Of a stretch of DNA of 64,000 nt, positions 19,828 through 45,200 are shown piece after piece. Source of the DNA: Mytilus edulis. Its lineage: Eukaryota. Both the position numbers and the translations under genes were made by a program. How positions within the stretch are numbered: the first letter of the stretch is position 1; the number at the start of each line of letters is the position of its first letter. The DNA lies in contig NC_092347.1 of NCBI RefSeq assembly GCF_963676685.1, forward strand, positions 29,140,001 to 29,204,000. Reading direction: 5' to 3'. The notes under the pieces were generated by a model. The model was not told where the DNA came from, searched no databases, and saw only the letters and a list, made by a program, of their open reading frames with translations.

Positions 19828-22800
19828 TTAGTTTTTGAATTTGATAATTATATCTTGTGTTAACATATGATTAAAGCTACTTAACCCTATATATTTGTCA
19901 TTAATTGTAAATGTTTCACTCATTTTTTGGTTCACCATTAAGAACAAGTCTATGACCGAGATCTTCTCTCCCTTCAAACTCTTCAGCAATTTCTCCATAA
20001 TGACAAATATCCAACCGCCAGCATCTTCCATGTTTAAATTGTGATATGACAAATAACCTGAAAAAAAATCCAACACCATCATTATAAGGGATGTTTTTAT
20101 GTTCATATGACACATTGCTTGAAAACAAGCATTCTGTGAGTATTGTGAGAAAATACATAGCTATAGTCCGCTATCAGTTAAAAATTAATTCTATTGGAAC
20201 AAAATTCTAACTTGATCTATAACTTGTCATAGTGTAAACTATATACATGTAAAAATTATCAAGTGAATACCTTCAAGCATGAGAAAAAAAGTGTTGAAAA
20301 CTGACTCTACACAAAATCATCAGATCAGAATAAAATTTGATCTTGATCAGTAACTTGTCATGATAAATCTCTATACCAATTGTCAAATCAATATCTTCAA
20401 GAATGACAAAAATAGTGTTGAAAAACTGATTATTTAAGTGATTATTCTAAGTCAAAGGACTATAACTCTGCACAAAATCATTTGACTGAAACAAAATTAA
20501 AACTTGATCTGTAACTTGTCATGATAAAACAATATACCAAATACCAAATCATTATCTTCAAGCATGAAGAAAAAAGGTTTGGAAAACTGATTTGGCGGAC
20601 TGACAGATAGACAGACAGACAGAGTGCAAACCTAAATTCCCCTACTGACAAAATCGACGGTACTAAGGGGACTAAAAAAACAGTACACATTGGGGAATCA
20701 CTAATAGTAAGTCAATGCTATTTGGTACATCTGAATGTCATGAAAATTATTTGGCCGTGCATTCTAAATCATGGTCTTTCATGGGTTTTTGATACCACAA
20801 ACTAGTCAAAACATTTACTAAATTTTATCATCGGTATAAGGACATCATTCGTAAATATAGCTCAACGAACATGCAGACTTCTTATACGTTCAGGTATTTC
20901 GCATCCAATTTTTTATGGAAATATTCTTTATAAAGCACAAAGGTGTCAGTATTCACCTCAAAAACTAACAAAACCTTTGAATAGACTTATTAAGAAGGGA
21001 TATAGTTACGATACTGTTGTCAGGTCATTAAAGATTGCATATTTTGGCGTTAATATTGATTCACTTATAGGGTCTTTGCATCAAAACTAAACACATTTAT
21101 TCAAAAACCAGTTGTTGGCATGACACGGGTTATGTTCTTCTCATATATGTTATGATGGTATGATACTAAACCCCTAACGGGAAGGATTGTGCCTGATGTT
21201 CATATGATGAAATCATAGTCTTTCAGTCAGTTTAATTGAAGTCTGGAGCTAGCATGTCAGTTAACTGCTAGTAGTCTGTTGTTATTTATGTATTATTGTC
21301 ATTTTGTTTATTTTCTTTGGTTACATCTTCTGACATCAGAGTCGGACTTCTCTTGAACTGAATTTTAATTTTAATGTGCGTATTGTTATGCGTTTACTTT
21401 TCTACATTGGCTACATTGGCTAGAGGTATAGGGGAGGGTTGAGATCTCACAAACATGTTTAACCATGCCACATTTTTGCGCCTGTCCCAAGTCAGGAGCC
21501 TACTGGCCTTTAGTATGGCGTTCATTATCACTGAACTAGTATATATTTGTTTAGGGACCAGTTGAAGGACGCCTCCGGGTGCGGGAATTTCTCGCTACAT
21601 TGAAGACCTGTTGGTGACCTTCTGCTGTTGTTTTTTTCTATGGTCGGGTTGTTGTCTCTTTGGCACATTCCACATTTCCATTCTCAATTTTATCTATTGA
21701 CTGAAACCTTTGTGTAGGTCTATGATTAGTTCAGGGGATCCACTTATGATAAGTCAATGATATTTGATATGCAGTTGTATTAATTGGCATCTATACATCT
21801 CCATGGATATAGCTTCACCCCCTTAATGTTTATTTCATTGAGAAACCATGTTTTGGAAAATTATCATAAATTCAAAATGCCTCAAGCGAACTCGGGTAGT
21901 TGTACGATTTCTATGGCAAAGAGTGAAGACCAGTCGTAGTATTACTGCCATTCATTTTAGTGCAATTTTTCAGTATATAAATACTTAATCAAGTTGTTGT
22001 CAATTTTAAAAACAGGTTGAGCTATAGGTAAAGTTTTACAGTAACACCTATAAGCAACTCACTGTAAAATTTTAAAAACTACAACCACAGAGTGATGTAA
22101 TGTTTTCCCGCAGAAAAACTAAGTCCATTTATAAGTAAAATACGGAAAAAATGGAATTTTATTTTCACAAAATTTACTTCTGGATACTATCTTATGATCA
22201 TAAATAAGCTTCTGTCCAAGTTTGGTAGAAATCCAGATTATTTAAAAAAGTTATTTAAATTTTTAAAACTTTAACCACAGAGTGTATGTAATGTTTTCCC
22301 GCAGAAAAACTAAGTCCATTTATAAGTAAAATAAGGAAAAAATAAGGAGAGAATTTTATTTTCACAAAATTTACTTCTGGATACTTTCTTATGATCATAA
22401 ACAAGCTTCTGTCCAAGTTTGGTAGAAATCCAGTATGGTTTAAGAAAGTTATTAAAAAAAAAAAGGTGTCACCAAATTCTGTTGTGTGGTTTCAGGAGTT
22501 GAGATGACAAGAACAGGACTGACAGAGGGACAGACAGACGGACAGACTGGTCAAAAATATTATACCCTCCTGGGGTATAATAATAATAAATCAATGATAT
22601 TTAGTACACAGTTAGCTTATCAAAAACATATGGCATTTTCAATGATGTTATTTGGGTCTGCAATTCAGTATTGTTTAAGGACGGAATGTTTTGCATAGTA
22701 AACTGGTTAAAAGTATTTGTCTAGGGAAATTAACTGAACATTAGCATGCATCTCCCCCCTTTCTCCTAGTAAATTCCAGATGAATTCAGCAAACAAGTGC

Positions 22801-25800
22801 ATAACAAATATACCTGATGGTGACGAAAACATAACAATACTGTCTCTGATACATGGCTGTGCTAATTTCCAGGTTTTAGGCCAGGGCATACTATTCAGAG
22901 CCCCTGTTGACAGAGATCTCCCACTGGCTCCAGTTGAAAGTTCTTCTGGTGTCTGTTGATTACCATTTGCAGGTACATGACTCCCAAAACTAGGTACAGT
23001 ATCTGAAAAAAACAATGGTTGAGAATTATAAAGTCATACAATGGTTTAAACAACTGTAGCTACAGACTTAAAGGAGACTTGACACGCTTTTCAATGGTTA
23101 TTTATACATATCTTTCCCTAAAAATACATTAAAAATCTGAATTAAAAAGATAGTCACATTAAGGCACATTAAACATGAACATCAAACACAAAGCACTTAA
23201 TTTTTGGATTAACTTTGAAAGTGTGTCCAAAATCAAAAATCTAAAACATTGTAAAATTGGGCATATCAAAGAACACCAATAATTCATTTTTTTATGAAAT
23301 CTTAATTTCAGACCCCAATTCGGAACAACTTGAATTCTGTGCCTACAATCAAAAATATAAATAAACACTTAGATTTAGCATATCAAAGAACCCTACAAAT
23401 TTGTTTTTTAGAAATCAAATGATGCTCAGTGATATTAATGGCCAATATATAAAATGTATTGATTGTCAATAAATAGTGGGGGTTCCAACCCCCAGAAACC
23501 CCCCTCTGGATCTGTCATTGAGTGTAGTAAATAAAATACTTCAATGATGAGTGACTATCTTTATAAAAATTACTCCTATGGTGAATGTAATAGATAAATA
23601 CTCCAATGATGAGTGAACTTACCCCGTTAATTAAATACTCATATGATTATTCTTAAACAATATACGCCTATGGTGAGTGTTCTTAATAGAATACTCCATT
23701 GGTGAATGTCCTTAATGAAGTACCCCCATGGTGAGTTTCCCTTACTAAATACTCTATTGGTGAGTGTTCTTAATAAAATACTATATTGGTGAGTGCCATT
23801 AATAAATGTACTCCTATGGTGAATGTTCCTTAAAAAAATGCTCATATGTTGAGTGTACTTAATAAAATACTTCTAGAATGAAATTCAAAACAGTGTGGAT
23901 GTGGCCATTGATTGACACATTAAATTCATCCATTGTCTGGGACAATTTAGGTGAACGTTGTATGTAACGACCACTTCTCACTATGTACTTTTTAAAGACA
24001 CTTAAGCTATCGGGTCACCAAAGGTTCTCAACACCTTAATAAAGTAATTCGAAAAATTAATCAGAAATAACACGATGTTTTGATTGATATCAATTATATA
24101 AATCAAAACATAAAGGTTATTCCTGATTCAATTTTCGAATTATTTTATAATTAAAGGCGTTAAGAAACCTTTGGTGACCCCACAGTTTGTATGTCTATCA
24201 TAGGTACGTCGTGAACAGTGGTCGTTACAGACAAACGTTCACGTAAATTGTCCCAGTCAATGGATGAATTTAATGTGTCAATCAATGGCCACAGCTACAC
24301 TGTTTTGAATTTCATTCTATGTTGAGTGTACTTAATAAAGTACTCATATTGTAAGTGTGCTAAATGTTTACAGCAAGTTTAATATTAGCAACTAATTTGG
24401 CATTATATTGTTATGCTTTACTTAATTCTGAAACCCACCACAAAGTATATAAATACAGTTTCACTTACTTTTTCAACTCAGATTTTGAAAATTCCTTTTT
24501 TATTTGAATTCATTTGACCTGAAATACCATTTTGTTTGCAAACTATTACTGTTTCATTACATCTTATTTTTGAACTTTTACTATTCTTTTTCATTTCATT
24601 TGACTATGATTTATATGAATGTTGTCATTTGTAAATAAATTGTTGGTTCTATTTGATTTATGTCTCAATTCTGCCAAAATCTGATATCAGGTATCCAGAG
24701 GATCAAATAGGCAACTACACATTCCAGGAGGGTTACACTGACTGTCCCCCTACTGTTATTCCAATACTGAATATAAAATAAAAGAGTTCTAATGTCCCCC
24801 TTGTTGCACACATTTTTGGAACAGTTTATAAATATCTTAGAAAAATGGAGGATTCAAAGCAAATGTAAATTTTCTTTTTCTTATACTGAACTTTTCCAAG
24901 GGGCATAACTTGTTAAAAATATTTGATCAGCACTGATTTTCAAAGAAAAGGGTCTAAGACATTGCTAATATAAATCTATATATTAATGATATATCAGTAT
25001 AATAATTGTGTGTATAAATAAGGCTCATCTTAAATTATTTATCGCTTCAACTGGCAAAAATAATAAAGACCCTACATACTAACTTGAATGATGCACTCCT
25101 TGGTCTCTCCCTAGTTTAGTCACTGTTCTTTCATCTGATCTATTTCTGCACATCTGTTAAATATAAATACAAATTTACATTCTTGCCGTCCCTGAAAGGA
25201 CATCAGAAACAGCTACCCAATAAGCAAGCTTTAATAGATATATTGTGCGCAAACTTTTAAAAACCAAAGAAAGTAAGCCAATGGTACCTTTGCACTATAA
25301 GCATTAGAAAAATAGCTCTAATGTAAAACATATCTTACAGTAATGATATCTTTTAGAAAAGTGTTTTTCCTGAAATAAAACATTTTTATTAGTGGTAAAT
25401 TGCAAATTTCAATTCCAATTATTCTGTTCAGAACTCAACCATCCCTGCAGTAAGTTACTGTAACTGGTTGTTTTTATTAACATCAATTCAATTGTGCTAT
25501 AAAAAACATCTTCCTTTGATATTTTTGCAGTTGTTGTGTACTAGTATTAGATTTTTATTTTATCTTGATTTTAAAATTAAATCAAAAGGTCAACTTGTAA
25601 CTTGGTACATATATATTCATTTCGATGCACCATAAACTAATTACTTTAAAGGATTAAGGAATGAATGGACTGAAAGGAGCATAGGCAAGAAAATATAATG
25701 CTGCTTTTCTCTTTTAACATTTTAGACAGAGCGTAAACAACTGACATTTCTAGATATGTAAATTACCTTTACGAAAGGATTCAAAGCAATGAACATATTG

Positions 25801-27093
25801 AAGATTAAAGTGCAAATTAAATCATGATAGTACCTGCATGATGAAAATTTTCTGTTTATCTTTAACGTCTTCAAATATTTTCAGCAGCTCATTTACTTTG
25901 TATCTGTTTGATCGCCATGCAATTTCTAAAGACACTTCAATTCCTGTTTTGTCATTACCGGTACTATCTTTTTCAACAGTGTCTTGTTCTTGTTCGACCC
26001 CATGTGAACTGACAGCTAATACAAGATATTCATATCCTCCTTCCTCAAATGTATTTTTCACTGGCAAAAAAATAGTGTTATACTATATACATTACATTAC
26101 AACTCTAGGTTTCCTACCTATCTATTTTATTATGACAGCAATTACATTTATTTTATAGTGAGCTAGCTTAAGGTGAAGGTTAAAACCCAGCACCATTTGT
26201 TTGCACCTGTCCTAAGTCAGGAATATGTTGTTCATGCAGTGGTTGTAGGAAGTTTGTTGATGTGGTTCTTGATCCTTGTTTTTTATATAGATTAAACCAT
26301 TGGTTTTCCAGTTCGAATTGTTTTATACTAGTCATTTTGGGGCCCTTTATAGCTTGATTTTTGGTGTTAGCAAAGGCGTCTTGATGAAGACCGTACTTTG
26401 ACCTATAATAGTTTACTTTTTATACATTGTGACTTGGATGGAGGAGAGTTAATTTTCTCATTGGCATTTATCATTTATGACTTTGAACTTTGACTTTTTA
26501 ACTAATTCCTATATAAACAGTTTTAAACGACAGACCATGGTTATTTAAAAAATAATAACATTTTCCGTATCAAGTTAGTAAGTTGGATAAAACAATCGTA
26601 CGATTTCATTGACACCGACACGCAATTACGACTTCATTTGGTTACTGTAGTTTATGTCCTTTGTGGTTTATAGACATATCGTGGCTCCTAATTGGAAAGG
26701 ATGACAAAATGGACACATGCAGAGAATTGATACTTTAAATTTAAAATCAATGGTGATATCACTTATCTAGCAGAATAAAACTTTAATATTAATTTATGAA
26801 TTTGAGCATTTTTATACAGAATGGACATAATATCAATTTTTAATTTTTTGGCGAAGTTTCCCTTGATTGTTGATTGATTGTTTCATAACAATAATCTCAC
26901 GTGGTTTGATTTATAACTTACAATCCTTTAACTGTTTTTTAAAGTCTTCTGCTTTTCTAGGTGGGGTATAGTTCTTCATATCAATCTTTTCAACTTTACA
27001 TCCTTCAACCTGGCTCCAGAAGGCTTTAAACTTTTCATAATTATCACTTGCACCATCTTCATTTAGAGGAAATATTTTGGCTAATATGCTCAT
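19828..27093 (-). CDS. Divergent caspase-like cysteine protease (clan CD, peptidase C14), 295 aa, no prodomain
   Basis: Exons on the - strand: 27093-26922, 26060-25834, 25153-25084, 23002-22814 and 20057-19828. All introns are GT-AG with phases 1,0,1,1; total 888 nt with no internal stop. Motifs appear in caspase order: YLVLAVSSHG (catalytic His), QKIFIMQ|MCR (QACRG-like, catalytic Cys), RDQGV, linker, DSIVMFSSPSGYLSY, GGWIF, DLFLMVNQKM, LTQDIII. Confidence 0.82.
20200..20680 (-). mobile_element. HINE-like fragment with internal tandem units and (GACA)n
   Basis: Repeated aacttgatctgtaacttgtcatgataaa units, gacagacagac at 20600-20622, terminal cccct...aggggactaaaaa. Confidence 0.5.
20780..21693 (+). 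mobile_element. 5'-truncated Penelope-like retroelement (Naiad-type): RT C-terminal coding remnant, SECIS and 3' tail
   Basis: 20784-21090 translates (one in-frame TGA, one 4-bp frameshift near 20866) as GF*YHKLVKTFTKFYHRYKDIIRKYSS/TCRLLIRSGISHPIFYGNILYKAQR...LNRLIKKGYSYDTVVRSL...LHQN*, resembling the C-terminus of PLE reverse transcriptases. The ORF ends with no downstream GIY-YIG domain. A SECIS follows, then a tail that recurs at 28460-28805. Confidence 0.68.
21141..21207 (+). promoter_or_regulatory. SECIS element, form 2 (selenocysteine insertion sequence)
   Basis: Helix I tcatat.../...atatga; core ATGAT (21152-56) opposite TGAT (21194-97); 11-bp helix II ggtatgatact/aggattgtgcc with one mismatch; unpaired AAA (21168-70); apical mini-stem ccc-ctaac-ggg; located about 50 nt after the element's TAA. 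Confidence 0.8.
22070..22580 (-). repeat. 190-bp tandem duplication within a HINE-like fragment
   Basis: accacagagtg...ttcccgcagaaaaactaagtcc at 22084 and 22274, followed by gacagacagacggacagac and a tataccc...gggtata hairpin. Confidence 0.65.
23535..24352. repeat. ~30-bp minisatellite (aaatactcctatggtgagtgttcttaat), interrupted by a MITE
   Basis: About a dozen degenerate units at 23535-23873 that resume at 24320. Confidence 0.7.
23876..24317. mobile_element. Foldback MITE with long TIRs and TA TSD (Tc1/mariner-like)
   Basis: gaatgaaattcaaaacagtgt... / ...acactgttttgaatttcattc, with inverted similarity along most of both arms; TA on both sides, and removing the element restores a minisatellite unit. 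Confidence 0.78.
26195..26470 (+). repeat. Dispersed repeat family (gtttgcacctgtcctaagtcaggaat...ggccctttatagct...gtctcattggc)
   Basis: Related copies at about 8120-8400 (-), 10160-10280, 10780-10940 (-), 35690-35790 (-), 38250-38525 and 47415-47630 (-). Confidence 0.55.
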
Positions 27094-27263
27094 TCCTCTT
27101 GAATGTTATTGTTGTGGATTCGAAAGTTCCTCTGAAATATTATTGTTGTGGATTGGATAGTTCCTCTTGAATGTTATTGTTGTGGATTGGATAGTTCCTC
27201 TGAAATATTATTGTTGTGGATTGGATAGTTCCCTCTTAAATATTATGGTTGTTGATTGTAAAG
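27093..27263 (-). repeat. 34-bp tandem repeat, 5 copies with alternating variants, directly upstream of the caspase-like ATG
   Basis: ttcctcttgaatgttattgttgtggatt.. alternates with ttcctctgaaatattattgttgtggatt..; lies between a - strand splice acceptor (27266-68) and the ATG at 27093. Confidence 0.85.
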
Positions 27264-28459
27264 TCCTGGAAAAATAATAAAACATTATTTTTGGATTATC
27301 TCTACAAACATGATAAAATATTATTGTTCAATGTATCAAATCAATGATAAATCGAGGACTTTTTTTTTATACTGCTCCCTTTCCTTACTAGTCCTGATCA
27401 GTCCTGCTGACTTCATAGATTTGACTAAAATGATTTTGAACTTGATTTGATATGATTGATATATTGTTGTTTGCTTATTTAAATTGTGTAAACTCAAGCG
27501 TTCTGGTGGTAAATATTCGGTTGTCGTATCTAGGTCAAATATGTCAATTTTGGAATGCAACACATTACAGTCATAATAAATGAATTAATAACAATATGTG
27601 CATCATTTAAGAGTTTGGAAGTGTTTGAATTTAATGAAATATATTAAATGCATGCCAATTTGATAAAATTCATTATTCTGCAGTAGTCAATATACGCATG
27701 TGCAAAAAAAAATATTGGATTTAGAGCATGCATGGTTTATTATCATAAAGCGAAAGAAACACGTCATATTAAAATCAAGTTTTTTCTATAATATCTAATT
27801 GAAAAAATAACTCTTGACAAAAAAAGTACCATACTGAACAGAAAAGGAAATTAAATTTGAAGGAAAATTATATTATGTTTGACTCCAGAATATCACCAAA
27901 ATCAGGCTTTTCAATTGGTATGAAAGTTGCACTTACAAATATATGCCAATTAGTAACAGCTAGGATACTTGCAGATTCAAATAAACTATAGTGATTCCAA
28001 CATTTATTTGGACAAAGATTCTACAAATTTTTCATCAAAATTGTTTTATGGTTGTCAGACTGTTTACAATAAAGGAAGAATCGCTGAGAAATGTTAAAGA
28101 ATTTCAAAATTTATTTGAGTAGAAATGAAGAGAATTTTTTTAACTTATGGACGAAAAAGTCCACAGCCAGGAAAAAGAGTCTTTAGATTAACATCTGCGA
28201 ATGAATAAAATAAAATATACATAAATATTAAAACAATATATAAAAGATGAAGAAATTCACATACTGAAGTAGCTATAGTAACTTGTGTTGTTTTGGGTTG
28301 AGACAATGAGGGCAGTTAAATGTGGCTACCTTCAACATGTTCAAGACGAAAAACAGTAAAAATTCTTGCCAAACAACGTTAACCGTAATGGTGCACGACT
28401 TTTAATGTACTTTCTAGAAGACGATAAAAGATTCGATTGAAATTGACTATTCATGTTTT

Positions 28460-29999: not shown

Positions 30000-30290
30000 C
30001 CCCCACTTTTCAACCCAAGAGCCAACTCACCCTATTTCCCCAAATTCGCCCCTCTCTTTCTTTTCTACATCGTAAAATTCGAAAATTTGCTCAGTCGAAA
30101 GGTCTAAACACCTGGTGAATGAAAACCTAAATAATTGAAGCTGGAGTGAAGAAGAACATTAATGTTCTTCAAAATTATTTCAAAAGTAAAGGTCAGAACT
30201 GATGAATGAATCTGCCAAATTTGGCGGGAAATAATTTTGTCCAATCAAAATGTAGGTGCTCATTCATCTTCGTAAAAGTAACAATGGCCG
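30000..30290. promoter_or_regulatory. Probable bidirectional promoter (RASA1 / caspase-like) with E2F site and CCAAT box
   Basis: TTTGGCGGGAAA (=TTTCCCGCCAAA, E2F consensus) at 30220-30231, CCAATCA at 30241-47, a YY1-like aatggccg over the ATG at 30284, and a candidate - strand splice donor aag|gtacgt at 29894/29893. Confidence 0.5.
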
Positions 30291-33200
30291 ACAAAAACAA
30301 ATTTTCACCATCAACAAGTGGTCACAGTCTGTCCAGCCCTGCATTGAGCCCTGATGACACAACGACAGAAAATGCAGATGATGAAGATCCTTCATTAGAA
30401 AACCAAGATAATGTTGAGCAGACACTGTTCATCAAAATGAATGCGCCACCCGAAAACCGGTGTGTTTTTCGTTTTAAAATTTTCATTTTGTACATAAATA
30501 TTACAACGTAAAATCACATAGATGATTCAGTCACTGTTTTTGATAATCAGCATGATTTTTGCAAAAATATTTCAAATGCAGGCGAAGTTAAGAAAACAAA
30601 ATGTCTATAAATTAGTTGACAGATCCAAATTAGGATAAATTATAATTATTTCCTGGTAAAACAGCAAATCATAATATCCTTTTAATGGGCTTTAAAATCA
30701 ATTGAACAAATTTATTATCAATATTTGAAGTCGATGCCTCCTCAAAAATCATTTGGCTTATTAAAAATACGATAATGTGAGCTAGGGAGACTTATTTATT
30801 TTAAAAGAACTGATTCGGGGAAGCTTCAAAATGGTACATGTAGCTCTTAGGTCCTTATGTTATGATATTTTGTCTATTTGCGGAATAGAGCTACGGTTCT
30901 GCAACTAGGACTTGCATATTTCAAACTGCAGTGGTACTGTCGACTTATTATTTACTCATCATGCTATGTCATGTCCCAATCTTACATGCAACCAGCGCAT
31001 ACCATTTTATTGCACAAAGAGGAAAATATGCTGAGCAAAAGCACAAAAGAGAAAACCTGCACATTGGGATAGTTTGTGCCAACATGCCTTAAGATTGAGC
31101 ATTTTAGGATCTACTTCAAATGTCAGATCCATCCCTTAATTTATAAATTGGTCATTTAAATATGTTTTCATTTTTTTCTGTTGTTAACAATGACCATCGA
31201 TATATCACACCTGCTAACTCAACTTTAAACCAGGGAGATTCACCCTCACCCTTCTTTGACATAGCTGTTTGGGTTGAAATATTGCAAATCTACAAAAATG
31301 AGAGATCATTGGGATTGCACCTTGTCCATTTTTGGTTTAAATGCAGTGATCGGGAAGGACGTGCGCCTATAGCACATATTGACAAGAAATGGTGCATACA
31401 GTGACAAATGTAAGCGCCCACGTGGCGCATGATATTTTTCACTTTGTTTCAAAATGTTTAGATATCGTCAAATGAATTTCCGATCGTGTTCCGTGCCGCC
31501 ATGTGTGTGTACACAACTGTGTAATGTTCCTCCAATAATAGGAGCACCTATATATTTTTGGGACGTCTCGGGTGTTTCCCTATCATAATAGAACCATGCG
31601 ATTTAACGTCTCGGTGTTTTCCTATTGTAATAATAGAACCTTGCGGTCTAACTGATAACCCGAAAAACGTAATTAACCATCATTCATGATATATTTGTTT
31701 ATAAACAACTTTAAATTTGTTAAATATGGCTAGTACAGACGAGATTTAACTCTAATAATAATCTCATTTAGTTTAGCTTATTATTATTTTGATTGAAGAA
31801 CCCCAAGACTTTTTAGGAATATAATTTTTGTCTCCATAAAAGACGCCTAACTGTCCTTGTCATTTTTTGGTCTTTGGCTCGTTTTCACATTTTGTAAACA
31901 TGACTTCAGCGATTTGTTGTTAATGTACAATGTATGTTCTATGAATGGTACTATATATGTTATTCTTGTCACTGTGATGAAGTTATAATAATACAAGAAG
32001 TGCAGAGGAAATGCCTGAAATGTCCTCTGATACGGAATGTCTCGAATAGGTATGGTATCGACGAAGACCCAAATTTAATGTACAAAAAAAAACCATGAAC
32101 ATGAACAAGGCAACAGTACCAGTTTAAACATTGTAAATAAAGGTTGACTTAAATATTGTTGGGGTTGGAAGAAGTTATTGTATGCTCATTGAAATTGAAA
32201 TAATAAAATCACAGGAACAATATCCATGATTTTATTTAAAATCATAAAGGTAAGTATCAACACCTCTTTGCCAAAATATACTGATATCTTTTTTTTTACA
32301 GAAGTCAATTAAAATGGCCCACTCATTTGACAACATGGCCCATTATTTTTTAAAATGGCCCATTGAATTTATTTTTGAGGGGCCCAGGGCCCATAGTGAG
32401 AAAAACCTTCCAGATCACTGTAAATGTCCCATTCTGATATTCCAAAGGGGTCAAAGAGACACAATAAATTATTACTAGCACATACTTATGTAACAATGTG
32501 CGTCTGTTCATAAAAAAACAAATTGGGATTATCTTGTCAAAAATGTTTCCTTCATGGTCAGCATTATATATTGTCACTTGAAATATCTCAGATTTTCTTA
32601 AATGACACAATAAAATACTAGAATCCTGAATATTTTGTTGACAAAATCAATTCAGCCTATGATTTGAATATCAATTGATCATCACTTAGCATCCCTGGCC
32701 CCCTAATGGCCTGTCAGGGTACAAGGCCTCTGATTGGGTTTAGGTGGCCCCCTTATCCCTAATTGCAATCCTACAAATGTCTCCTTCCAACATGTCCAAT
32801 TTAGATTGGAGGGTGTTTGGCCAGTAATAGTGTTTGAATCAATGAGTATCTAGACTAAAGTTTTCTAGCAAAATGACTTTTTCGATGCTGAAAAACATGC
32901 ATAAGTATTGTTATTATTTGTTAATTTTTCATCTATTTATCATGTTATAAATGTATAGAAATATCTTTCTTGTACATCTAGACCAATGACATTGTCGACT
33001 CATTGAATAAAAAGTAAAAAAAAAAAGAAATGGAGGCATGAATATTACACTATATACATGTTTGCTTTAATTTTCTCTTTGTTAAATTTAATCCTGGCAT
33101 GGTATCAAAGATGAGTTTATTTGTACTCATTATATCATTCTGGAAAGTTAATCATATACATGAGCAGTCAACAATCAACTGGAAAACAAAAGCAGAACCA

Positions 33201-36200
33201 AAATCCCCTCAATTATTCTTTCAACTGATATTGAAAATATATACATGATAAACATGCTATAAATATATGTAAACACATTAAGTTGGAAGATTGAAGAATA
33301 ACCAACTTGACGACAATCTTTTTTTCTAAGGGCCCATTTTTAAATGGGCGTGCAACATTTACAACAAAAAGATGTAAAAAAGAAATTCCTGAATCTATCA
33401 TATGTATGCTATTTGTTCCTCTATGAAAATGAAATAAAATGAAAGTATGTTAATGAAAATTGTGGATTTGTGGAATTAAAGCTTTTCTTTTTGTTGCAAA
33501 GGATTATTACTGTAAATTAATATTACCTCAGGGAATAATCTTGCAGCCAAAATGTGGATTAAGCTTAATGCATAAGTTAACAATATTTTCAAAATCGCTT
33601 TAACTTATAGCTAAGTATTAAATTGTTGCCATCAAAATCAGTATAAAGGCAACAACTAGCTGAAGTGATCTTCAATTCACACAGGTAAACAAAAATGGTG
33701 ACTATAAAGGAAAATCAAGATTTTTGAAACCAATTTAAACAGGATACGTGGCAAGAAGTGGTTCCATTTATTAATCTACCTAGCGGTCTGATGACTCCTC
33801 AAAGAGTTATTGCTCAGGTTGAAATGAGGATTTTTGCTGATTTAAAAGTTTTTATGCTCTTGAAGGGGGCTTAAAAGGTTTACCCTTATCTATCTGTATG
33901 CATGACCTGAAATTTGTTTCTGTTTTCTTACTTAAGTTTGCCTTAACCAAATGAAACTTTTAACATAATTCCTATTTCTACCAAACAGTTGAAATTTGAA
34001 TTTGGCTGGTGTTAGATTCACTGTTCCTAAGTTATGTCCCTTTATAAATGGAAAAACACCTGAATTTGCTGATTAACACTCTACTTTGCCTCAACCAAAT
34101 GGTATATGAACTTTCAACACAAATTATTACCACTAACACATATCAAGATTGAATATGGGTGGCATTACTTTCACTGTTCTCAAGTTATGTCCCTTTATTG
34201 ACTCTTGTTTATATATTGTAGTTACAAGTGGGGGTAACTTTCGTACCATTTATTTGTGTGTGTCCAAAGTATAGAAATTCTATAGAGAAAGTGTAAATGA
34301 TAGATATTATCAGTAAAATATTATCTACAAAAAATGAGCCTAACTCTCAGTAACTCAAGTAAAATTTGAATTACAGCAACCTAGTTCAGTAATTCTTTTT
34401 GTATCCAACTGTTAGTTATGTCTCCTTTTGTTGACTTCTACTGTCTTTTCTTTTTCTTTTTATACAACTTTGTTTGGGTTAAAACTATTTTTTTATCTTT
34501 GTACACAGGTTTATAATTATATTATTGGCATGAAGTTGAAGTACCCTAATACTGTGTGTATCATATCACCATGACCTTTATGTAACCTTGACATTTGACT
34601 TACAAGTCAAAATACTTGATTATATTCTTACATTTATTATATTGGTGGAAAAGTCATATGTGATAATTATACCTGCAAAACACTATAAACTAATTGGTTT
34701 AAAGATGTGATACAACATGTACAATATAGCAATGGAATGTCTATTTGTGTAAATGAATGTCGGTATTATTTTCATTGTATGCTAAATAAACCAAATACGT
34801 TTTTTCCTGCTCTGGTTTCTGTGGGAAACAATTCAAATTAATAAATAAAATAATAATTGAAACAATAGATACTATTTCCTGGACAGGAAGAAGTGATTCA
34901 TCATAGAAACTATCTACAAATATTTGGCATCCTTAAATTATCATGTTAGTTTGAAATATGCTTATAACTGTTGTTTAATTAAATAAAATCCATAAAAGCA
35001 GTGTACCCTACTAGAAATTTAAAAGCATCTTGGCAAAGAGCATGTAGAGGAAAGTTTACAAAATGTAGTTGTTGAAATTCATGATCCAGGATAAACTATC
35101 ATAGAATTTCATATTTACTGTACAATGAATTAACAGTGTTACTATTGAATTATGTTACCTTGATGCTAAAAGAGAGAACAATGTGTACCTAGTATGTAGC
35201 ATAAATTATTTGATGTGATGTTTTTAGGTGGTATCATGGTTGTCTGGGGAGACAGAAAGCTGAAGAAAGATTAAGAACTGCAGGAGAAGTGGGATGTTAC
35301 CTTGTTCGTGAAAGTGAAAGTAACAAAGGATCATATGTATTGTCATACCTAGGGAAAAATGGAATGACTCATTTCAAGTAAGTGATTATTGTTGAATCAG
35401 AGGTGCAAAATACATGTTTACAGGTTATAGTTGTTCTCTAGTGTTAAAGTTACAGTCTAACATTTCATGTACTGGTAATTGCAAGCCCAGTAGGACTTTT
35501 ATTCCTGCTGCATGACACTGTGATGTTTCATTTTATGCTTAGCAATGGTCAATTATAAGAAGTCATGAAGATTTATCAAAAAGAAAAAAAGATTGAGATA
35601 TTATTATGAACAAATATAACTCTGAAGTACATGTATATGTGATTAGTCCCATTTAAAATCATCCTGTCACAAACAAATATGTAATAGATATAAGAAGATG
35701 TGGTATGAGTGCCAATTGCAATGAGAAAACTCTCCATCCAAATCACAATATGTAAAAAGTAAACCATTATAGGTAAAAGTATGGCCTTTACAATGTTTAT
35801 ACAGATCCTTAACTCACACTGAATGTTTCTTTGCCAATTAATGCATATTTGACGAAGTGTCGGGTAGTGTGATTTGGGGTTAATCTTGTTTTACATTTTA
35901 GAACAGTTTCTGTTTATCATCATTATTATGACTAATATGTTCTTCCTCTTTTAAGGATGGATGATGAAGAATTTATATCAGTAGGAGGTGTTTAACTTGT
36001 ATTGCTGTAACTTTAGCATCTTTCATAATTCTGTCAAGGGAAGAACTATACGTACATGTATATTTTTATTATTTTCAGGATTTCATCGTATTGTGGTGAC
36101 TATTACATTGGTGGGAGGCGTTTTGACTCTCTGTCGCTACTTATAGGTTACTACACATCAGTTTCATACTTACTGAAGGAGGAACAACTTAAATCCCCTG

Positions 36201-39200
36201 TAGAACCACCTGAGGTAAATACCAATAGCACAGGTTAAAATATAAAGATAAGAAATGTGGTTATAATTACAGTTCTTGGTTCTCTCCAGCTACTCTGTCT
36301 GTTTACACCAGTAATATAGATATAGGCGTAGGGAAGGACGATAAGAATAAATATTGCAACTTTGAAAAAGGCATATTGTACTCAAACTTTTTTTCTAATA
36401 CATTTGTATGTCAATTGTCAAAATGATTGTGGTAATCCAAAAGGAAAAGTGATGACAATGAATAGAGGTGGCAGTGGTTGTAATGTTAATGTAAATACTT
36501 AGGTTTATTATCTTACCTTTGTAGCCAGTTGATGATAAGAGGAAAGTAGTTGCTATCTATCCATTTTCTAAAATGCCAGAAACAGATGAACTCAGGTAAA
36601 GTTGTTTATTCATTACAAATTTATTTTAATTTGCACTTGAACATACATGTAATAGTAAGTTATACACATTTTATGAATTATATAATAGATACCAAAAGAT
36701 CAACAAGGGTTTAATAGATAACCATCAATTAATTAATTACAGAAAGTACTTTTAGATAAATACAATGTTTATTTTAAAACACAGTTCAAGCGTAAATTTG
36801 GATGGCATCACCATCACCTTTCTCTAGTTATGTCCCTGTATGAATGGAAAAATTGGCAACTTTGCTGTTTCAGCAATCAATCTTTTCTTTGCCTCTACTT
36901 AATGTTATTATTGAATTGAGGTGGTGGTGAAAGTCCACATTACTTTCTCCATTTTAGAGTTATGCCCCTTTATGTAGATAAATTGCTAAATCAAGCTCAA
37001 ATATTGGTTGCATCACTTACATCATTCCAGAGTTATGTCCCTTTATTAATGGGAACATTATTGAATTTGCATTATATTTTGTCCATGAACGCATTCTTAT
37101 TTTATTACGACATCAATTACTTTGTCAAATCTTCATGGAATTTTACGAAACTTAGGGCAGAAGTATTGAACTATGTCCAGTGCACGATGTTTTGTCGATA
37201 TTGTCAACATCGCAATGTCAACTTTATAGTGTCGTTATTGTGTTTACATTGTATCCTATCAATATGTTCTATACCTTTCTGTTTACATCGTTCACATCGT
37301 ATACATCGGGATGTTGACAATATCATGTCGACATCGTGTTTATATTGTATATATAGAGAGTCTATAGCTTTCTGTTTACATCGTTCACATCGTATACATC
37401 ACGATGTTGACAATATTGTATCAACATCGTGTTTATATTGTATATATATATAAATAAAGTCTATACCTTTCTGTTTACATCGTTCACATTGTATACATCG
37501 CGATGTTGACAATATTGTGTCAACATCGTGTATATATAGAGTCTATACCTTTCTGTTTACATCGTTCACATCGTATACATCGCGATGTTGACAATATTGT
37601 GTCAACATCGTGTTTATATTGTATATATAGAGTCTATACCTTTCTGTTTACATCGTTCACATTGTATACATCGTGATGTTGACAATATCGTGTCAACATC
37701 GTGTTTATATTGTATTTATATATATAAAGTCTACATACCTTTCTGTTTACATCGTTCACATCGTATACATCGCGATGTTGACAATATTGTGTCAACATCG
37801 TGTTTACATTGTATATATAGTGTCTACACCTTTCTGTTTACATCGTCGTTGACATCGTATACATCGTAATGTTAACAATATAGTGTCAAAATGTTGTTGT
37901 TGTTGTATATACATTTTTTTTTGTTCTTTTTTTTTAAATAAGTTAACATGGTTAAGCAGTTAGTTATATTGTTAAAATTGTTTCCATTTTTCATGTCGGC
38001 GTCTTTATTGTTAACTATGCCATATAAACTTTGCTCAATGTTAAAGGCCATACGGTTATCTATAGATGTGTCAGTTAGTATGTATGTACTGGAAATTTTA
38101 CTTATTTGCAATCATACCACATCTTTTTTTATAAATACATTTCTGTTTAAATTGTTCACATAACAATGCTAACAATATTGTGTCAAAATCGTGTTTATAT
38201 TTTATATTGAGTCTATGGTACGTAACTAAAAACGTTAAACTAACTGCATTTGTTTGCACCTGTCCTTAGTCAGGAATCTGTCGTTCAGTAGTTGTCGTTT
38301 GTTGAATTGTTCATACGTGTTTCTGGTTTCATGTTTTTTACATTAGACCTTTATTTTTCCAGTTCAAATAGTTTTACACTAATGTTTTTTTGTGCCTTTC
38401 ATAGCTTGCTACTCGATAAAAACCAAAACTCCGTATTAATGACAAACATATAGGGGTTTACTTATAAAAGATGTAACTTAAATAAAAAGTTGTCTCATTT
38501 GAACTTATACCGCATCTTCTTATATGTATACATCGCTATGTTAAAGATTTCAACGATGTAAACAATATTCAAGAGTTCAAACAATGTCAACGTTGTTCAC
38601 ACGACATCGCGTTAACCATGTAAACATAATGATGTTAACGATGTCAACGATGTAAACAATATATAAAAGTTCAAACAATGTCAACAATGTTGACACGAAA
38701 TTGTGTTTACATTGTATACATCGCAATGTTAACGATGTCAACGATGTTAACAATACATAAGGGATCAAACAATGTAAACGATGTTGACACGACATCGTGT
38801 TAACATTGTAAACATCGCGATGTTAACGATGTCAACGTTGTAAACAATATATAAGAGTTCAAACAATGTCAACGATGTTGACACGACATCGTGTTTACAT
38901 TGTATACATCGCAATGTTAACGATGTCAACGATGTAAACAATATATAAGGGTTCAAACAATGTAAACGATGTTGACACAACATCGTTTTAACATTGTATA
39001 CATCGCGATGTCAACGATGTATACATTATATAAGGGTTCAAACAATGTAAACAATGTTGACACTATATCGTGTTAACATTGTAGATATCGCGATGTCGAC
39101 AATATTGAATAAACATCCTTCACTGGACATGAATGGAAGTATTTGCATTTAACATTTAAGAAATGAAATCTTGAGCAAAATTATGAAAATGAAAAGAGAA

Positions 39201-42200
39201 TAATTTTACAAGTTTATACACAAATCCCAGTGATTTTGAATTTTTGAATTTTTGTCAAAGGTTAAAGATTTCAAGTAGTATTAAACTGTACTTTTCTGGG
39301 TCCTCTCGCTGAGCTTAAACTAGGAAAACTATGTTAAAACAGTATGCTTGAATATTTCAGTTTTGATAAGGGAGATGTCTTTACTGTGTTAAATGAGATG
39401 GGAAATTCCTGGTTATGGGTGAAGTCACAGACCTCAGGGGAGCATGGACAGATTCATGGAGCTTTAGTGGAAGATCTGGTAAAGAAAAAAAATTATATGT
39501 TTAAAAGCATTCTGGTCTTTTAGTGTTTCTACCAAGAGAAAATTAAAGTTGATTAACAGGATAAATGTGCTTTGTTAAAGTTAAAGTTATATGATTTAGT
39601 TTCTATATTACTACACACAATATTAATGAGCAAAATTAATTGTGTTGTATAATGTAATCTGTTGTGGTTTAACCAGTATACAATACATTGTATGTTTACT
39701 CTCTTGTAACACAAGTTCCATACTATTATCATTAGTTGCTGTCTTTCATCTTTGTTTTTTTTTGCGTTTATTGATTTGTCAAAATTCAGATATGGCATAT
39801 AGCTGATGAATAGATGAAAAATGCCACAGTGTTTTCATATTTATTTTTTAGAATGGAAACATTGATCCAGACGAGAGTTTATGCTATTTTCAGCCAAACA
39901 TTTCAAAAGAAGATGCTGTAGAAAAGCTAAGACAAGGTAATGTATCTACCAGGGGGGAAAATAACTATTATTGTCAGTATTTAACATGATCCAACCTTCA
40001 ACATCCTGTGCAAAAGCCAATTACAGATGATAAAGTTCACTTAGAAAATGAAATATTGCATAAAACAACTTGGGTTTGAAAGTAATGTGTATACAGTACC
40101 ATTTAATGCTCTTGAGCATTGTTCAAGGGAACAAAATCAACCCTCCGTCACATCCCATATTTTTTGAAACATCGTTTAATCTACCTTCTTAAAAAAATTA
40201 AGTGAACTAAATCAAGAAAGGGAAATCTTTAAAAATAAAAAAGGCAGAAATATATGTATATTGGTAGATATGGCAAATAAAAAGACAAGAGGTTTGACTT
40301 GAAGCAAGGCAGATATGGCAATTTACAAGCCATGAAGATAAGGCTAAAAGTAAGGCATATATGTCAAATAAAAATCTGGAAGATATGACAAATAAATGTT
40401 GCAACATTATAAATAATGAGAAAATATGTTCTTTATTATAGGAGGTCAAGGCAGTTTTTTAGTCCGACCAAGTGAGAACTCACCAGGAAATTATTCGTTA
40501 TTTGTACTATGTGACAAAATAGTACAAAGGTTTAGGATAGAGAAACATGAACGTCAGTTACTGATGGGAGGAAGATACTTTGACAGGTTTGTGTCCTTTG
40601 TTTTATTTTTTAGAGTTGGAAATTTCTCCAATTCTTAGCTGATTTTTCCTTTTTCTGACCGGTTGATTATTTTTTTTAATCAATGTGTAATCAATGGGTG
40701 GTTCGTTTGATCTCAGTTCTTCATTGGTCAAAATTTGATTATGACGTCAAATGTTCTTGTTTTTCTCTGAATTTCTTATTGTGAATTCCTGAAAATAGGC
40801 GACCCTATCTGATGACTTTACACAGAAAGAACACATCTTTTTGCAGGCGATTCAGAAAATTTAAAAATATTGATATCGACTATAAATCTTTAGAGAAACA
40901 GATTCCACCTCAAAATCTCATCCAATGTGATATTTATCCACTCAAGACAGTTAAATTTTAAATATTTAAAACGCTCGGCAAGCATCATGTTTTACATTTG
41001 ACAATTGAACTGTCGAGTGGATAAATATCATTTTACACTAGATGCAGTGGTAAAATCTATATTTCTAGCAATATACTGCTAATAAATTTTAAGAGGATTA
41101 AGCTGTACATTCTAAAGAAAAATTATGAAATAAGCAAATAAACATCTTTAAAACTATATAACTAAACACAAGGATTAGTATGTAGTTTTCAAAAACATGA
41201 CTTACATGCAGCCCAATTAATGCCATATTTTAAAATTTATTTACAAATACCTTGATTGAAAAGTAAATTTCATGCCATGCTATATAATAAAAATTTGTAG
41301 TAACTCACCCTTGGTCAGAAATTCAGAGTGTTTCATTTTATTTTATAGTTTGGATGGTATTATAGAGCGTTACAAGAAAGAAGAAATCGTGGAGGGTTTT
41401 ACACTAGTCACACCAGTAGTTAGGGTAAGGAACTATTATATTTTTACTTCGACCACAAACTTGAAAATCCTTATAACTGGCAGTACTTAGGGTAGGAAAC
41501 AATTCTATTTCTACTTAGCTACAAACTTAAAAATTGAAAAAAGTATTAAAATTTAACTATGTAAAACAAACTCAAAACATCTAGTATTAATGTAATGTTG
41601 TTTATTGTATGCCATATAGAACAGAACAGAACAGAACATATTTTATTTCCAATTAAGGGCCCACAAGGGGCATACAGAGTATACATGAATAAGGCAAAAG
41701 AATATTGATTTGCATAGATACATAGATACAAACAATTTTATTTTTTTTACATACAGTTACAATACAATTACTAACTCATATTCACTTTAATAAATTTACC
41801 AGCAGCATTAAGGACCTGATTGTCTTCACAGTTTAATAAATAAATAAATTTATGCTGATTATCAAGTATAGAAAAATTTGGAATTCTTTGACAAACAAAG
41901 TCAAAGAGAGCATCTCTATCTGATTTAAAATTTTCACAGTTAGTTAAAAAATGGATTTCATCTTCAACACAGCCAGAGGAGCATTTTTTGCAAATTCTTT
42001 CATTTCGTGGAATATTTGAAAAACGACCAACTTCAATTTGAAGCTTATGAGCAGAAATACGTAATTTGCATATAGATCTTCTAAAATCAAAGTTCTTAAT
42101 TAAAGAAAGATAATTTTCATAACCAAAATTCTGCTTAAATTTCACATAATTAAACAGTTTTCCATCAGAAGCTTTATTTTGGCTAGCATACCAATTGCTA

Positions 42201-45200
42201 ATATATTTAGTGTGAATTAATTTACTAGATATGTTCAAAAATTTATATTGTCCGAAATGTTTTACTTCTTGTTTAATTTCAAAAACTTCTAATACTTTTT
42301 TAACAAATGAGAACCAAGAAGTTATGTTAGATTTGTGAAGCTCTTGGCTGCATTTATAAGCATCTTTCAATAGACTGAATTCAGTTGTAAGATTTTCAAA
42401 TCTATACCAGTATTTTACAATTGACTTTACAATATCATAATGTAAGGGGAAATGTCCCAGTTCTGATAATACAGCAAAATTGACACTCCTTTTGTGTACA
42501 CCAAGTATAAATTTAGAAAATTTAAGATGGAGATTCTCACACTTAAGATTTTTAAAAATATTTTCAAGATTAAATAAGGAAGACTGTAATTTATTACAAG
42601 AGACATTATAACCTCCCCATACCTCTGAATTATATAACAGAATGGGTTTAAGGGTATGATCAAAAATATGAACACAAGATTTTATTCCAGGAGACAAATT
42701 GATAAAATCCTTTCTAAGTTTAAAGTAGGCCTTAAGAGCCTTATTATAAAGTTCAGTTTTAGCTAGATGAAAACTTCCAGAAGCAGTAAAGTGAACACCT
42801 AAATATTTGTAATGAGCGACACAGTCAATCAAGTTATTCTGCAGTCGAAAATTCTCCTGAATTTTCCTTCCAGCCTTATTAAAAATTATGACTTTAGTCT
42901 TTCTAATATTAACTTTCAGGCACCAGTCAGCACAATATTTTTCTAGCTGATCAAGTCTACTTTATAAATATATGCATGTTAACAACTAAAGCTATTATGT
43001 AATCATTTATTCAAATTTGACTTTCTTAACAGTATTCTGTTGAGTCTGCAAGGCAATAGTAAATCTAAAAAAAAAACAAAGAAAAACATGTTACATGTTC
43101 ATCCATGAAACAACAACCCAACATGAAAAATTAAACAAATCTAAAAAAAATATGACAGATATGCCTTATTGCTATTTGTCTGCCATTATTGGACATAACA
43201 AACTTTCTTGTAAAATTTTGACGCCACTATGGAAAAGTGATTGTTGTATGGATTCTCAGGTCAAGCGGTGCAGATTTCCAAATAGCTATAAGGTCTATTG
43301 ATAAGGGTAATGGTCTTAGTTTTATTTTCAAATTATTTCGTTTTACAGGAGACAGGTCAGAAGAAGAAGTCAGAGCTTGATGGTTCTGCAGATGATTTGT
43401 ATGAATCAATTAGAAATACTTCACAGGGTACCTTCATCGGGAGAACCAACAAGTTTGATTTCAAAGGATTCTTACATATAAGAAAAGGTAAAGACAATTA
43501 TCCATACAGTTTTTTTTTTAACAGCATGATTTAATGTGCACATATTTTGAAAGAGGTCGTTCAGCAATATTTCAGTAATTAAAAGAGATAGATGTATTTT
43601 TATTTTGATTTTCTGCTGAATTGGCCAAAATCTGTGTCTTAATCAATTTACTGTACCTTGAAAATAACTCGTTAAAGATGTCAGTTCCAGTAACTTTTTT
43701 TCTTATTTTAAGATACCATTATCTTATATTTTCATCAAATTCTTGATCACTCAGTTAAGTCATCTTTTGAATATATTATGATTTCTTGATTTCATTTTAC
43801 TCTGTTTAGCAAGAAAGATACATTATATAATTTACAGGTACACAGAAGAAAAAGTGGAAAAATATGTTTTTTGTGTTGATTGGTAGTGAAAAACAACTGT
43901 GCTATTTAGAAAATGAAAAGGTTTGTTTTAAGAATTGAAACATTGATAGATAGGAAATAACAAATGCACTAAACAGACTCATTACAATCAACATGTTCTA
44001 TCAGGTCAAAGTCCACTCTAGATATTTGATTTTTTTCAGTACATTGAAATTGAACAAACAGGATATTATAGTCCAAGAAGTAGGACTGTCATAATGTGAA
44101 ATAAAGAAATATTTAAATTGTCACTCTTTTATGAACTCTAAACAATCCTGTTTTCACAAACAATATTTTGTTGTCATTGAAGTCCTGACCCGTTGATATT
44201 GCTGTAATTTATTTTCAAGATTGTTTAACTTTGTAAGTGTATTCATGCAATAGTTGATCCCAGCTTTACTTTTTCGCTTTTTTGTAGTTGTTAAAATACA
44301 TCTTTTTTTAAATTTTTTAATTATTCTTGTCATCTTCAAAATTTTAAATTAAATTTATTTTATCTGTTTAAACAAGGAAAAATATTTATTGAAACAATAT
44401 AAATGGAAAATGGCCTCATTATTATCTGCTTGAAGTAGACAATACAAATACAGGGTGATGTTTTCTTTTTTCAGAGATCTCGACCTAAAGGCTTGATAGA
44501 CTTAAATTTCAGCTCACTATATCCAGTCCATGACAGCTTCTTTGGCAGGTATGAGATTATCAGATGAACATGTTTAAGACATATAAGTAAGGAATAAAAT
44601 GAACTAAGTATCAAAATGTCAAATTTCTGCAATTAAAGGAATTTCAATTATTAGATAGTACAAATTTATGCATGTTTTGCCTTCTTGCCATGTACATAAG
44701 TCAAAAGGGCAAATTTGTTCTTTCATTCAAAATTAGTCTTTGATTGTTTAAGTTTTATTGTAGTCTAACATTGAGTTCCTCTTGAATTTTATCTTTACCC
44801 TACAAGTATTACAGGATAGTACTATAACAGATACTAATACAGAAGTAAAAGATGTAACTTTTACATTCCTATAACTGACTTGAATTTCAGTTAGAATCAA
44901 TTATTTTATGAACCAAGCATAATATAAATGTAAAATGTCCAGTTGTTTCCTGTTGATATTTTATCCTTACTATACAATAACTACTATATAATTTCAGACC
45001 AAACTGTTTCCAGTTAATCACCAATGCCAACCCCTACAACCATTTCCAGTTATATTATCTCTGTGCTGAGAATGGTGATGATGCACAGGTAGGTTTAGAG
45101 CTCTAGAAAAGCATTTAAAAAAGTGGGGTATACTGTTTTACCTCTTTGTCTGTCTGTCTGTCTGTCTGTCCGTCCCATGAAAATTTTTCGTCACATTTTT

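What the first reader, a model, noticed from the sequence alone, without database searches (positions are those of the whole stretch)
19828..27093. Caspase-fold protease with intact His/Cys dyad but apparently no Asp-specificity pocket
Seen: an open 295-aa spliced ORF with SSHG and QMCRN, the latter split across an intron and so invisible in the ORF track. Where caspases have R-x-G-T/S-x-x-D (Arg179, caspase-1 numbering) it reads NEDGASDN, and where they have Y-x-S-x-R (Arg341) it reads YLSYH. The Gly after CR is Asn, there is an acidic insertion after the His, there is no CARD/DED prodomain, and the linker has no Asp after RDQGV. Inference: a lineage-specific caspase homologue with altered, possibly non-Asp, P1 specificity or a regulatory role, and with a different activation route.
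Basis: partly seen in the sequence, partly recalled or inferred. Interest (0 to 1): 0.7.

Follow-up and report, generated by a model that had tools for sequence, protein, structure and literature searches.

The report
Mussel caspase with charge-flipped specificity site
A real, spliced mussel gene encodes a caspase-type protein that keeps its catalytic residues but has an acidic residue where caspases carry the arginine that grips aspartate, so it likely no longer cuts after aspartate and may instead cut after basic residues or act as a regulator.

Summary
The gene is real. Five GT-AG exons on the minus strand give 295 aa, identical to RefSeq Mytilus edulis XP_071167473.1 ('uncharacterized'). 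RNA contigs support the junctions, Pfam Peptidase_C14 passes its cut-off, and the AlphaFold2 model (pLDDT 84.7) matches true caspases (Z about 21.5) ahead of MALT1 (18.6). One feature is distinctive. By alignment Arg179 is Glu in 15 of 15 clade sequences that cover it, with the L1 loop cut short, whereas 38 of 38 nearest relatives keep Arg. His, Cys, oxyanion Gly and Gln283 persist down to about 50% identity, and the 341 substrate loop is unusually variable. Best reading (0.45): an active, non-Asp, probably basic-preferring protease. Main rival (0.35): a weak or inactive regulator or decoy. No residue-level superposition, dN/dS or assay was possible. Verdict: a new variant of a known, highly diversified family.

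The parts
26922..27093 (-). Coding exon 1 (aa 1-57): beta1, shortened L1 loop, E12 at the Arg179 site, D17/N18 on helix 1
   Evidence: (X1 rec 4, X3 rec 9, 0 differences)
25834..26060 (-). Coding exon 2 (aa 58-133): SSHG with catalytic H77 and oxyanion G78, extended beta-hairpin (aa 77-106 in the model), Q133
25084..25153 (-). Coding exon 3 (aa 134-156): M-C135-R-N-R, D150 (likely equivalent of caspase-3 D169)
22814..23002 (-). Coding exon 4 (aa 157-220): Asp-free linker, conserved WPKTWKLAQP segment, first small-subunit strand
19828..20057 (-). Coding exon 5 (aa 220-295 + stop): S223, Y224, H225 at the Arg341 site, variable 341 loop, beta6 strand
27094..27265 (-). 5' UTR part of exon 1, made mostly of a 34-bp tandem repeat (4.9 copies); in-frame TAA at 27108-27106; candidate acceptor at 27266
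   Evidence: RNA contigs reach 27120; acceptor inferred from sequence
30031..30221 (-). Probable non-coding first exon, head-to-head with a RASA1-like gene (splice to 27265 inferred, not seen)
   Evidence: contig pieces 30030-30221 with loose ends; G|GTGAGT donor

Best explanation
This is a spliced, prodomain-less member of the mollusc-expanded caspase group, single-copy in this assembly, that is likely an active His/Cys protease but likely no longer cuts after Asp, being predicted to favour basic P1 residues. Shown: gene structure, transcription, caspase fold, intact S76-H77-G78 and Q133-x-C135-R136. Shown by alignment only: Glu at the Arg179 site, a non-basic residue at the Arg341 site, and an L1 loop several residues shorter than in relatives. 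Inferred: the S1 floor, which carries two Arg in caspases, is here lined by E12, D13/D17, N18 (Asp in 11 of 15 clade rows), Q133 and a variable residue 225, so it would repel Asp and could accept Arg/Lys, or a polar residue. Inferred: with no conserved linker Asp it would be activated by dimerisation or by cleavage at a non-Asp linker site (E178 or R186), not by the usual caspase cascade. Speculative: the fast-changing 341 loop suggests an immune or host-pathogen role.
For: E at site 179 in 7 of 7 covering clade rows against R in 38 of 38 covering relatives; 15 of 15 with fragments added (not independent, about two lineages). hhalign puts D13-N18 on P95-D100 of P0034, next to its invariant R94 (probability 99.85%), and that profile aligns its Arg to caspase-3 R64. 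The model has helix 15-26 with pLDDT 93-98. Catalytic surroundings are conserved against the 49-52% identical lineage: His strand 10/13, Cys strand and L2 16/26, L2' 9-10/10, beta6 12/15, against linker 9/44. In clan CD the charge of helix-1/L1, L4 and L5 residues sets P1, and basic P1 is the commonest preference (PMC4357240 section 17; PMC2064784 passages). Bivalve caspase-like proteins thought inactive have lost the His or Cys itself (PMC7836458 passages); here both are kept. Linker Asp present in 47 of 47 relatives but absent in 3 of 8 clade rows and never at a shared position.
Against: The Arg-specific signature is incomplete: Gln283 is kept (Asp in para- and metacaspases), site 341 is H/D/G/T/S rather than Asp/Glu, and this protein has Asn, not Asp, at site 185. 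40% of core columns (101 of 251) are invariant in six full-length members, so joint invariance of His and Cys alone has a chance of about 0.16. With L1 shortened, E12 may not point into S1; no coordinates were returned, so this was not checked. The variable 341 loop also fits relaxed constraint. Raw-read depth on the bins of exons 2-3 was under 1 in the parts of runs X21 and X24 that were read. No activity data exist.
Confidence: 0.45

Rival explanations
1. A catalytically weak or dead caspase-like regulator or decoy: it would act through its conserved dimer strand and L2' segment (heterodimer with canonical mussel caspases, in the manner recalled for cFLIP-L) or by soaking up caspase inhibitors with its variable 341 loop.
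For: Both S1 arginines gone, L1 shortened, no complete alternative pocket. The best-conserved blocks include non-catalytic ones (L2' 9-10/10, beta6 12/15). 341 loop variable at 7 of 13 columns against 5 of 139 elsewhere in four unnamed near-identical sequences. At least 154 caspase exon matches in the genome offer many possible partners.
Against: His, Cys, Gly238 and Gln283 are kept in every row that truly covers them, whereas inactive bivalve homologues are described as losing the dyad (PMC7836458 passages). An invariant Glu at site 179 suggests selection on that position rather than decay.
Confidence: 0.35
2. Still an Asp/Glu-cutting caspase, with the basic pocket rebuilt from another residue (K21, R138 or H225) or working at low efficiency.
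For: Gln283 and Ser339 kept. Legumain supplies an S1 Arg from a different element (PMC4357240 section 17), so alignment can miss a substitute. K/R at 21 and R138 are conserved in the clade. A related oyster enzyme with QACRS cleaves DEVD (PMC11543851 passages; I did not see its S1 residues).
Against: An acidic patch (E12, D13, D17, D/N18) sits at the S1 end of helix 1; H225 is not conserved; R138 is shared with relatives that keep Arg179.
Confidence: 0.13
3. A misfiled paracaspase (MALT1-like), as the local match QMCRNRSD to DMCRKRND might suggest.
For: MALT1 was the top PDB sequence hit of the clade profile, at E 0.68; MALT1 Z 18.6 in the fold search.
Against: That E-value is not significant. 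All 33 hits of the 60 whose sequences I read, and all 47 non-clade rows of A3, are clade fragments or caspase-type proteins (46 Q and 1 E at site 283). It has Gln283, a 53-aa linker, SHG rather than GHG, and no C-terminal Ig domain. Caspases score about 3 Z units higher with lower rmsd. The genome has separate paracaspase-like loci (L021, L023).
Confidence: 0.03
4. A decaying or transcribed pseudogene.
For: Low read depth; long stem branch of 1.48 changes per column.
Against: Full-length open proteins in M. edulis, galloprovincialis, trossulus and californianus, a near-full one in coruscus, and a 49-52% identical lineage; core 101 of 251 invariant against linker 5 of 44; spliced RNA.
Confidence: 0.03

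Closest known systems
Bivalve/gastropod caspase-3/6/7-like group with long inter-subunit linker (PMC11543851); Mytilus caspase-3/7-1 to -4 (PMC3037946)
   Same: No CARD/DED, post-His hairpin insertion, non-Gly after CR, frequent Arg341 loss, D-x-G after the Cys. The nearest named full-length hits are bivalve proteins (Tegillarca, Saccostrea 'caspase-14-like', Mytilus 'CASP2'). That these hits belong to the published group is inferred from shared features.
   Different: Arg179 is Glu (Arg in 38 of 38 relatives; Arg179 reported conserved in all six caspases of PMC3037946), L1 shortened, Met before the Cys, linker of 53 aa by my count (63-286 in the published group, by their borders) with no conserved Asp.
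Vertebrate caspase-3, -7, -9 (MEROPS C14A)
   Same: Fold (Z 21.4-21.8, rmsd 2.3-2.6 A over 195-202 residues), His237/Gly238/Gln283/Cys285/Arg286, Ser339, aromatic 340.
   Different: No Arg179 or Arg341, 15-20% identity, His-to-Cys distance 58 against 42, Asn at the caspase-3 V266 site.
MALT1 paracaspase and metacaspases (C14B)
   Same: No basic S1 residues; acidic residues at the start of helix 1; activation without an Asp cut is possible.
   Different: Keeps Gln283, lacks Glu/Asp341, has a long linker, no DD/Ig domains; lower structural score (18.6 and 17.4).
c-FLIP-L pseudo-caspase
   Same: Caspase fold (Z 16.7); a possible model for a regulatory role.
   Different: cFLIP lacks the catalytic dyad and has DEDs (recalled); this protein keeps the dyad and has no prodomain.

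Membership tests
Peptidase family C14 (caspase fold) | Caspase domain and fold | tested here: met
   Pfam PF00656 46.9 bits > 21.4; Foldseek E 4.9e-10; VIA Z 21.8
Peptidase family C14 (caspase fold) | His/Cys dyad after beta3 and beta4 with Gly next to His | tested here: met
   H77, G78, C135 in 8 of 8 clade rows, aligned with 46, 46 and 47 of 47 relatives; dyad geometry not inspected
Caspases sensu stricto (C14A, Asp-specific) | Arg179 in S1 | tested here: not met
   E12 by MAFFT and hhalign; alignment-based, no residue-level superposition
Caspases sensu stricto (C14A, Asp-specific) | Arg341 in S1/S3 | tested here: not met
   H225; D/G/T/S in orthologues
Caspases sensu stricto (C14A, Asp-specific) | Gln283 | tested here: met
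   Q133 in 13 of 13 covering rows
Caspases sensu stricto (C14A, Asp-specific) | Cleavage after Asp | not testable with these tools
   needs an enzyme assay
Caspases sensu stricto (C14A, Asp-specific) | Asp maturation site in the inter-subunit linker | tested here: not met
   0 Asp in 53 aa; D150 aligns to caspase-3 D169 and by spacing in short relatives, but to D175
Paracaspases/metacaspases (C14B) | Asp at 283, Asp/Glu at 341, Asp at 185 | tested here: not met
   Q133, H225, N18; signature from PMC2064784 and PMC4357240
Paracaspases/metacaspases (C14B) | C-terminal Ig domain and DD/Ig prodomain (paracaspase) | tested here: not met
   protein begins at beta1 and ends at beta6; upstream in-frame stop
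Mollusc caspase-3/6/7-like long-linker group | Phylogenetic placement inside the published cluster | tested here: inconclusive
   quick tree of 54 rows: clade SH-aLRT 100 on a long branch, sister group unresolved, no published reference sequences or outgroup included
Mollusc caspase-3/6/7-like long-linker group | Linker of 63 aa or more | tested here: inconclusive
   53 aa between G152 and P206; the paper's borders differ
Pseudo-caspases (cFLIP-like) | Loss of catalytic His or Cys | tested here: not met
   both kept

The most novel reading that the evidence does not exclude
An animal enzyme on the true caspase scaffold has reversed its S1 charge (Arg179 to Glu) and become an Arg/Lys-specific protease by a route different from paracaspases. 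It would belong to a hidden set of mussel caspases that repeatedly left Asp specificity (a second case with Leu179 and Asp283 sits at L078/L079), with a substrate loop diversifying in an immune arms race.
Probability: 0.27. Interest if true: 0.78.

Novelty: new variant of a known kind. Interest (0 to 1): 0.45.

Why it matters
Caspases are defined by cutting after Asp, and the switch from ancestral Arg/Lys to Asp specificity is described as one-way and unexplained (PMC2064784 passages). A natural caspase-scaffold enzyme with an acidic S1 would be a ready test of how clan CD specificity is rewired. It would also mean that Asp-based substrates and inhibitors, widely used as apoptosis markers in mussels, miss part of the repertoire. 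If it proves inactive, it is one more divergent member of an already large bivalve expansion and of modest interest.

Tried and rejected
Single exons gave no Pfam hit; only the full protein did. Homodimer prediction: no answer, score 0.01, no evidence either way. dN/dS not run: no orthologous DNA came back from metagenome contigs (587 pattern matches, 0 confirmed). No longer fused form among 7815 candidates of 533-2000 aa (weak evidence). The run search listed no holder on record as RNA; support comes from the lays. The Atlas did not hold P0001; P0012 gave caspase clusters at 0.93-0.94. The MALT1 motif resemblance was rejected (E 0.68; CR-x-R is common in relatives). I first read D150 as the caspase-3 D175 cleavage site and dropped this because short relatives and one search place it at D169. 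The careful tree did not finish; the quick tree is reported. The Treslin_M search found nothing anywhere, controls included. Earlier scan findings: nothing in 4 look-ups. Literature: five locus or accession ids, 0 papers; 'caspase + bivalve + arg179 + substrate specificity' gave only PMC3037946; searches listed nothing on this gene by title or abstract start. Six terms found nothing in the searchable supplements of PMC11543851; one picture-only file could not be searched. Subscription journals and bioRxiv supplements were not visible.
Full report
1. Is it there? Yes. Five exons on the minus strand (27093-26922, 26060-25834, 25153-25084, 23002-22814, 20057-19828) with four GT-AG introns give 295 aa and a stop. 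The translation is identical to M. edulis XP_071167473.1 (P0007) and differs at one residue from M. galloprovincialis LOC143071877 (P0001), so the gene is already annotated, as 'uncharacterized'. Of the 24 runs listed I laid six. Contig X3 rec 9 runs through exons 1, 2, 4 and 5 with a 70-nt stretch where exon 3 belongs. X1 rec 5 holds exon 3 exactly, with loose ends matching exons 2 and 4. The 25153/25834 joint is listed for one contig and one raw read, which seem to come from a diverged copy. Raw depth is low. An in-frame TAA 15 nt upstream of the ATG lies within the RNA-covered exon, so there is no prodomain. In this assembly the gene is single-copy: exon 2 gave 1 match, and P0012 gave the five exons plus one weak hit at E 0.07.

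2. What fold? Pfam Peptidase_C14 scores 46.9 bits against a cut-off of 21.4. AlphaFold2 with a 55-row alignment gave pLDDT 84.7 and pTM 0.81. The exhaustive structure search ranks three caspase chains first (Z 21.4-21.8, rmsd 2.3-2.6 A, 195-202 residues), then MALT1 (18.6, rmsd 3.6), a plant metacaspase (17.4), cFLIP-L (16.7) and legumain (15.1). That model was fed mostly caspase rows. A model from the seven clade rows alone (pLDDT 62.7) also hit caspase-7 and -9 first.

3. Relatives. Close homologues are confined to Mytilus (67-80% identity; edulis, galloprovincialis, trossulus, californianus, coruscus) and to unnamed records at 49-52%. A profile search of 1.84 billion representatives gave 60 hits at E <= 0.001: clade fragments, then divergent caspases from E 2.5e-13 down. 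Of ten hits looked up, five clusters carry names in their representatives, all bivalve. A quick tree of 54 of the 55 rows (P0002 left out for its aberrant C-terminus) gives the clade full support on a long stem, with unresolved sisters and no outgroup.

4. Which oddities are special? Against the 47 non-clade rows of alignment A3: the residue after CR is non-Gly in 30 of 47; site 341 is non-basic in 26 of 47; the His-to-Cys distance is 50-69 in all 46 rows with the His (58 here, 42 in caspase-3). In the model the 'acidic insertion' is an ordered hairpin, and it is about 10 residues shorter in some orthologues. The intron after Gln283 recurs in 3 of 21 parsable top caspase loci of this genome and in L078/L079. 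Published work agrees: QACRS with DEVD activity in oyster (PMC11543851; passages and section 6 read), Arg341 substituted in Mytilus caspase-3/7-4 with Arg179 kept (PMC3037946; passages and section 6 read), and large bivalve expansions with degenerate members (PMC7836458; passages read). This genome gave 154 caspase exon matches, a lower bound.

What remains special is site 179. It is Glu in 7 of 7 covering clade rows and Arg in 38 of 38 covering relatives (9 have gaps); 0 of 38 relatives lack both basic residues. With fragments added, E12 and D17 are invariant in 15 of 15 covering rows, D13 in 13 of 15, and site 185 is Asp in 11 and Asn in 4, this protein included. These rows are not independent. 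The register rests on MAFFT, hhalign, the link to caspase-3 R64 and helix 15-26 in the model. The segment between beta1 and this site is several residues shorter than in the relatives. In the genome I took 40 of the first-exon matches. I left out three similar ones and those starting past the site, and looked at two paracaspase-like loci separately. 38 of 40 keep Arg179 and 2 have Leu. This count favours Arg, because the Pfam search missed this gene's own first exon.

5. How it likely works. The catalytic parts are kept: S76-H77-G78, Q133, C135, R136, S223 and an aromatic at 224. Against the distant lineage the His strand (10/13), Cys strand and L2 (16/26), L2' (9-10/10) and beta6 (12/15) are far better conserved than the linker (9/44). 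This argues for purifying selection and moderately for catalysis; invariance of His and Cys alone has a chance of about 0.16 at the core's 40% background. In clan CD the charge of residues on helix 1/L1, L4 and L5 sets P1 (PMC4357240, passages and section 17 read; PMC2064784 and PMC12550167, passages read). Swapping two Arg for Glu and a variable residue predicts loss of Asp preference and, less firmly, a taste for Arg/Lys. The paracaspase signature (Asp283, Glu341, Asp185) is not met, so the basic-P1 step is an inference, and a polar P1 or no activity remain open.

The linker has no Asp here and in 2 more of 8 clade rows, against at least one in 47 of 47 relatives. D150 most likely equals the structural caspase-3 D169 (one search aligned it to D175). 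Activation by dimerisation or by a non-Asp cut is therefore inferred, not shown.

The 341 loop (residues 221-232) is unusually variable: 7 of 13 columns against 5 of 139 among four near-identical unnamed sequences, and 11 of 13 against 10 of 38 in the same exon among five Mytilus proteins. In 7 of 9 control pairs of relatives the loop was at least as conserved as the downstream flank. The region was chosen after seeing the alignment, and mosaic copies or relaxed constraint could explain it, so this is a lead only.

6. Comparison and verdict. It is a C14 protein of caspase descent, but it fails two of the three S1 criteria for an Asp-specific caspase and also fails the paracaspase criteria. It works, on my best reading, more like a C14B-type enzyme on a caspase scaffold (0.45); a regulator or decoy is close behind (0.35). 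I found no paper on this gene (and the other searches named under Tried and rejected), within a library that lacks most subscription journals. Two other loci in the same genome (L078, L079) carry Leu179, Asp185 and Asp283 on a caspase-type exon plan. They fit the basic-P1 signature better than this gene and show that S1 remodelling has happened more than once in mussels. Novelty: new variant of a known kind. Interest 0.45: a clean, testable prediction inside a family already known to be wildly diversified in bivalves.

Noticed in passing
L078 (G000:C11:73026000-73033500) and L079 (G000:C11:73080500-73090000): Two caspase-scaffold genes (SSHG, KLFFID|AC with the same phase-0 intron) with Leu at Arg179, Asp185 and Asp at Gln283, the S1 signature of Arg/Lys-specific para- and metacaspases; site 341 appears to be Met in L078. 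Possibly a better case of a basic-P1 animal caspase.
   Followed up: partly
L022 (G000:C8:27292212-27295478): Another caspase-like exon with Asp at the Gln283 site (KLFFIDACR).
   Followed up: no
L021 and L023 (G000:C4:18.85-18.89 Mb): Paracaspase-like exons (FGHG or CGHG, LDTCR or LDICR); the label rests on recalled MALT1 motifs.
   Followed up: no
window 30284-49519, + strand: A RASA1/p120 RasGAP-like gene (SH2, SH3, C2 exons; best PDB hit Ras GTPase-activating protein 1, E 7e-21) starts about 40-80 bp from the probable first exon of the caspase gene, head-to-head, suggesting a bidirectional promoter. RasGAP is a caspase-3 substrate in mammals (recalled); the adjacency may be chance.
   Followed up: partly
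window 27093-27258: A 34-bp tandem repeat (4.9 copies, 88% matches) fills the 5' UTR right up to the start codon.
   Followed up: no
window 4161-6221, + strand: Open 686-aa Ser/Thr-Pro-rich frame, probably a large last exon; no Pfam hit above cut-off. A resemblance to the TICRR/Treslin tail is recalled only; the Treslin_M search was uninformative.
   Followed up: partly
window 41771-42961, - strand: Open 396-aa frame inside an intron of the RASA1-like gene that looks like the C-terminal part of a LINE retrotransposon ORF (recalled); no Pfam hit.
   Followed up: no
runs X1 and X3 laid on window 25084-26060; proteins P0004, P0012: A diverged expressed copy with a 36-nt shorter exon 2 is present in these runs but not in this assembly; P0012 looks like a mosaic of the two types. 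Suggests presence-absence variation or inter-species alleles with recombination.
   Followed up: partly
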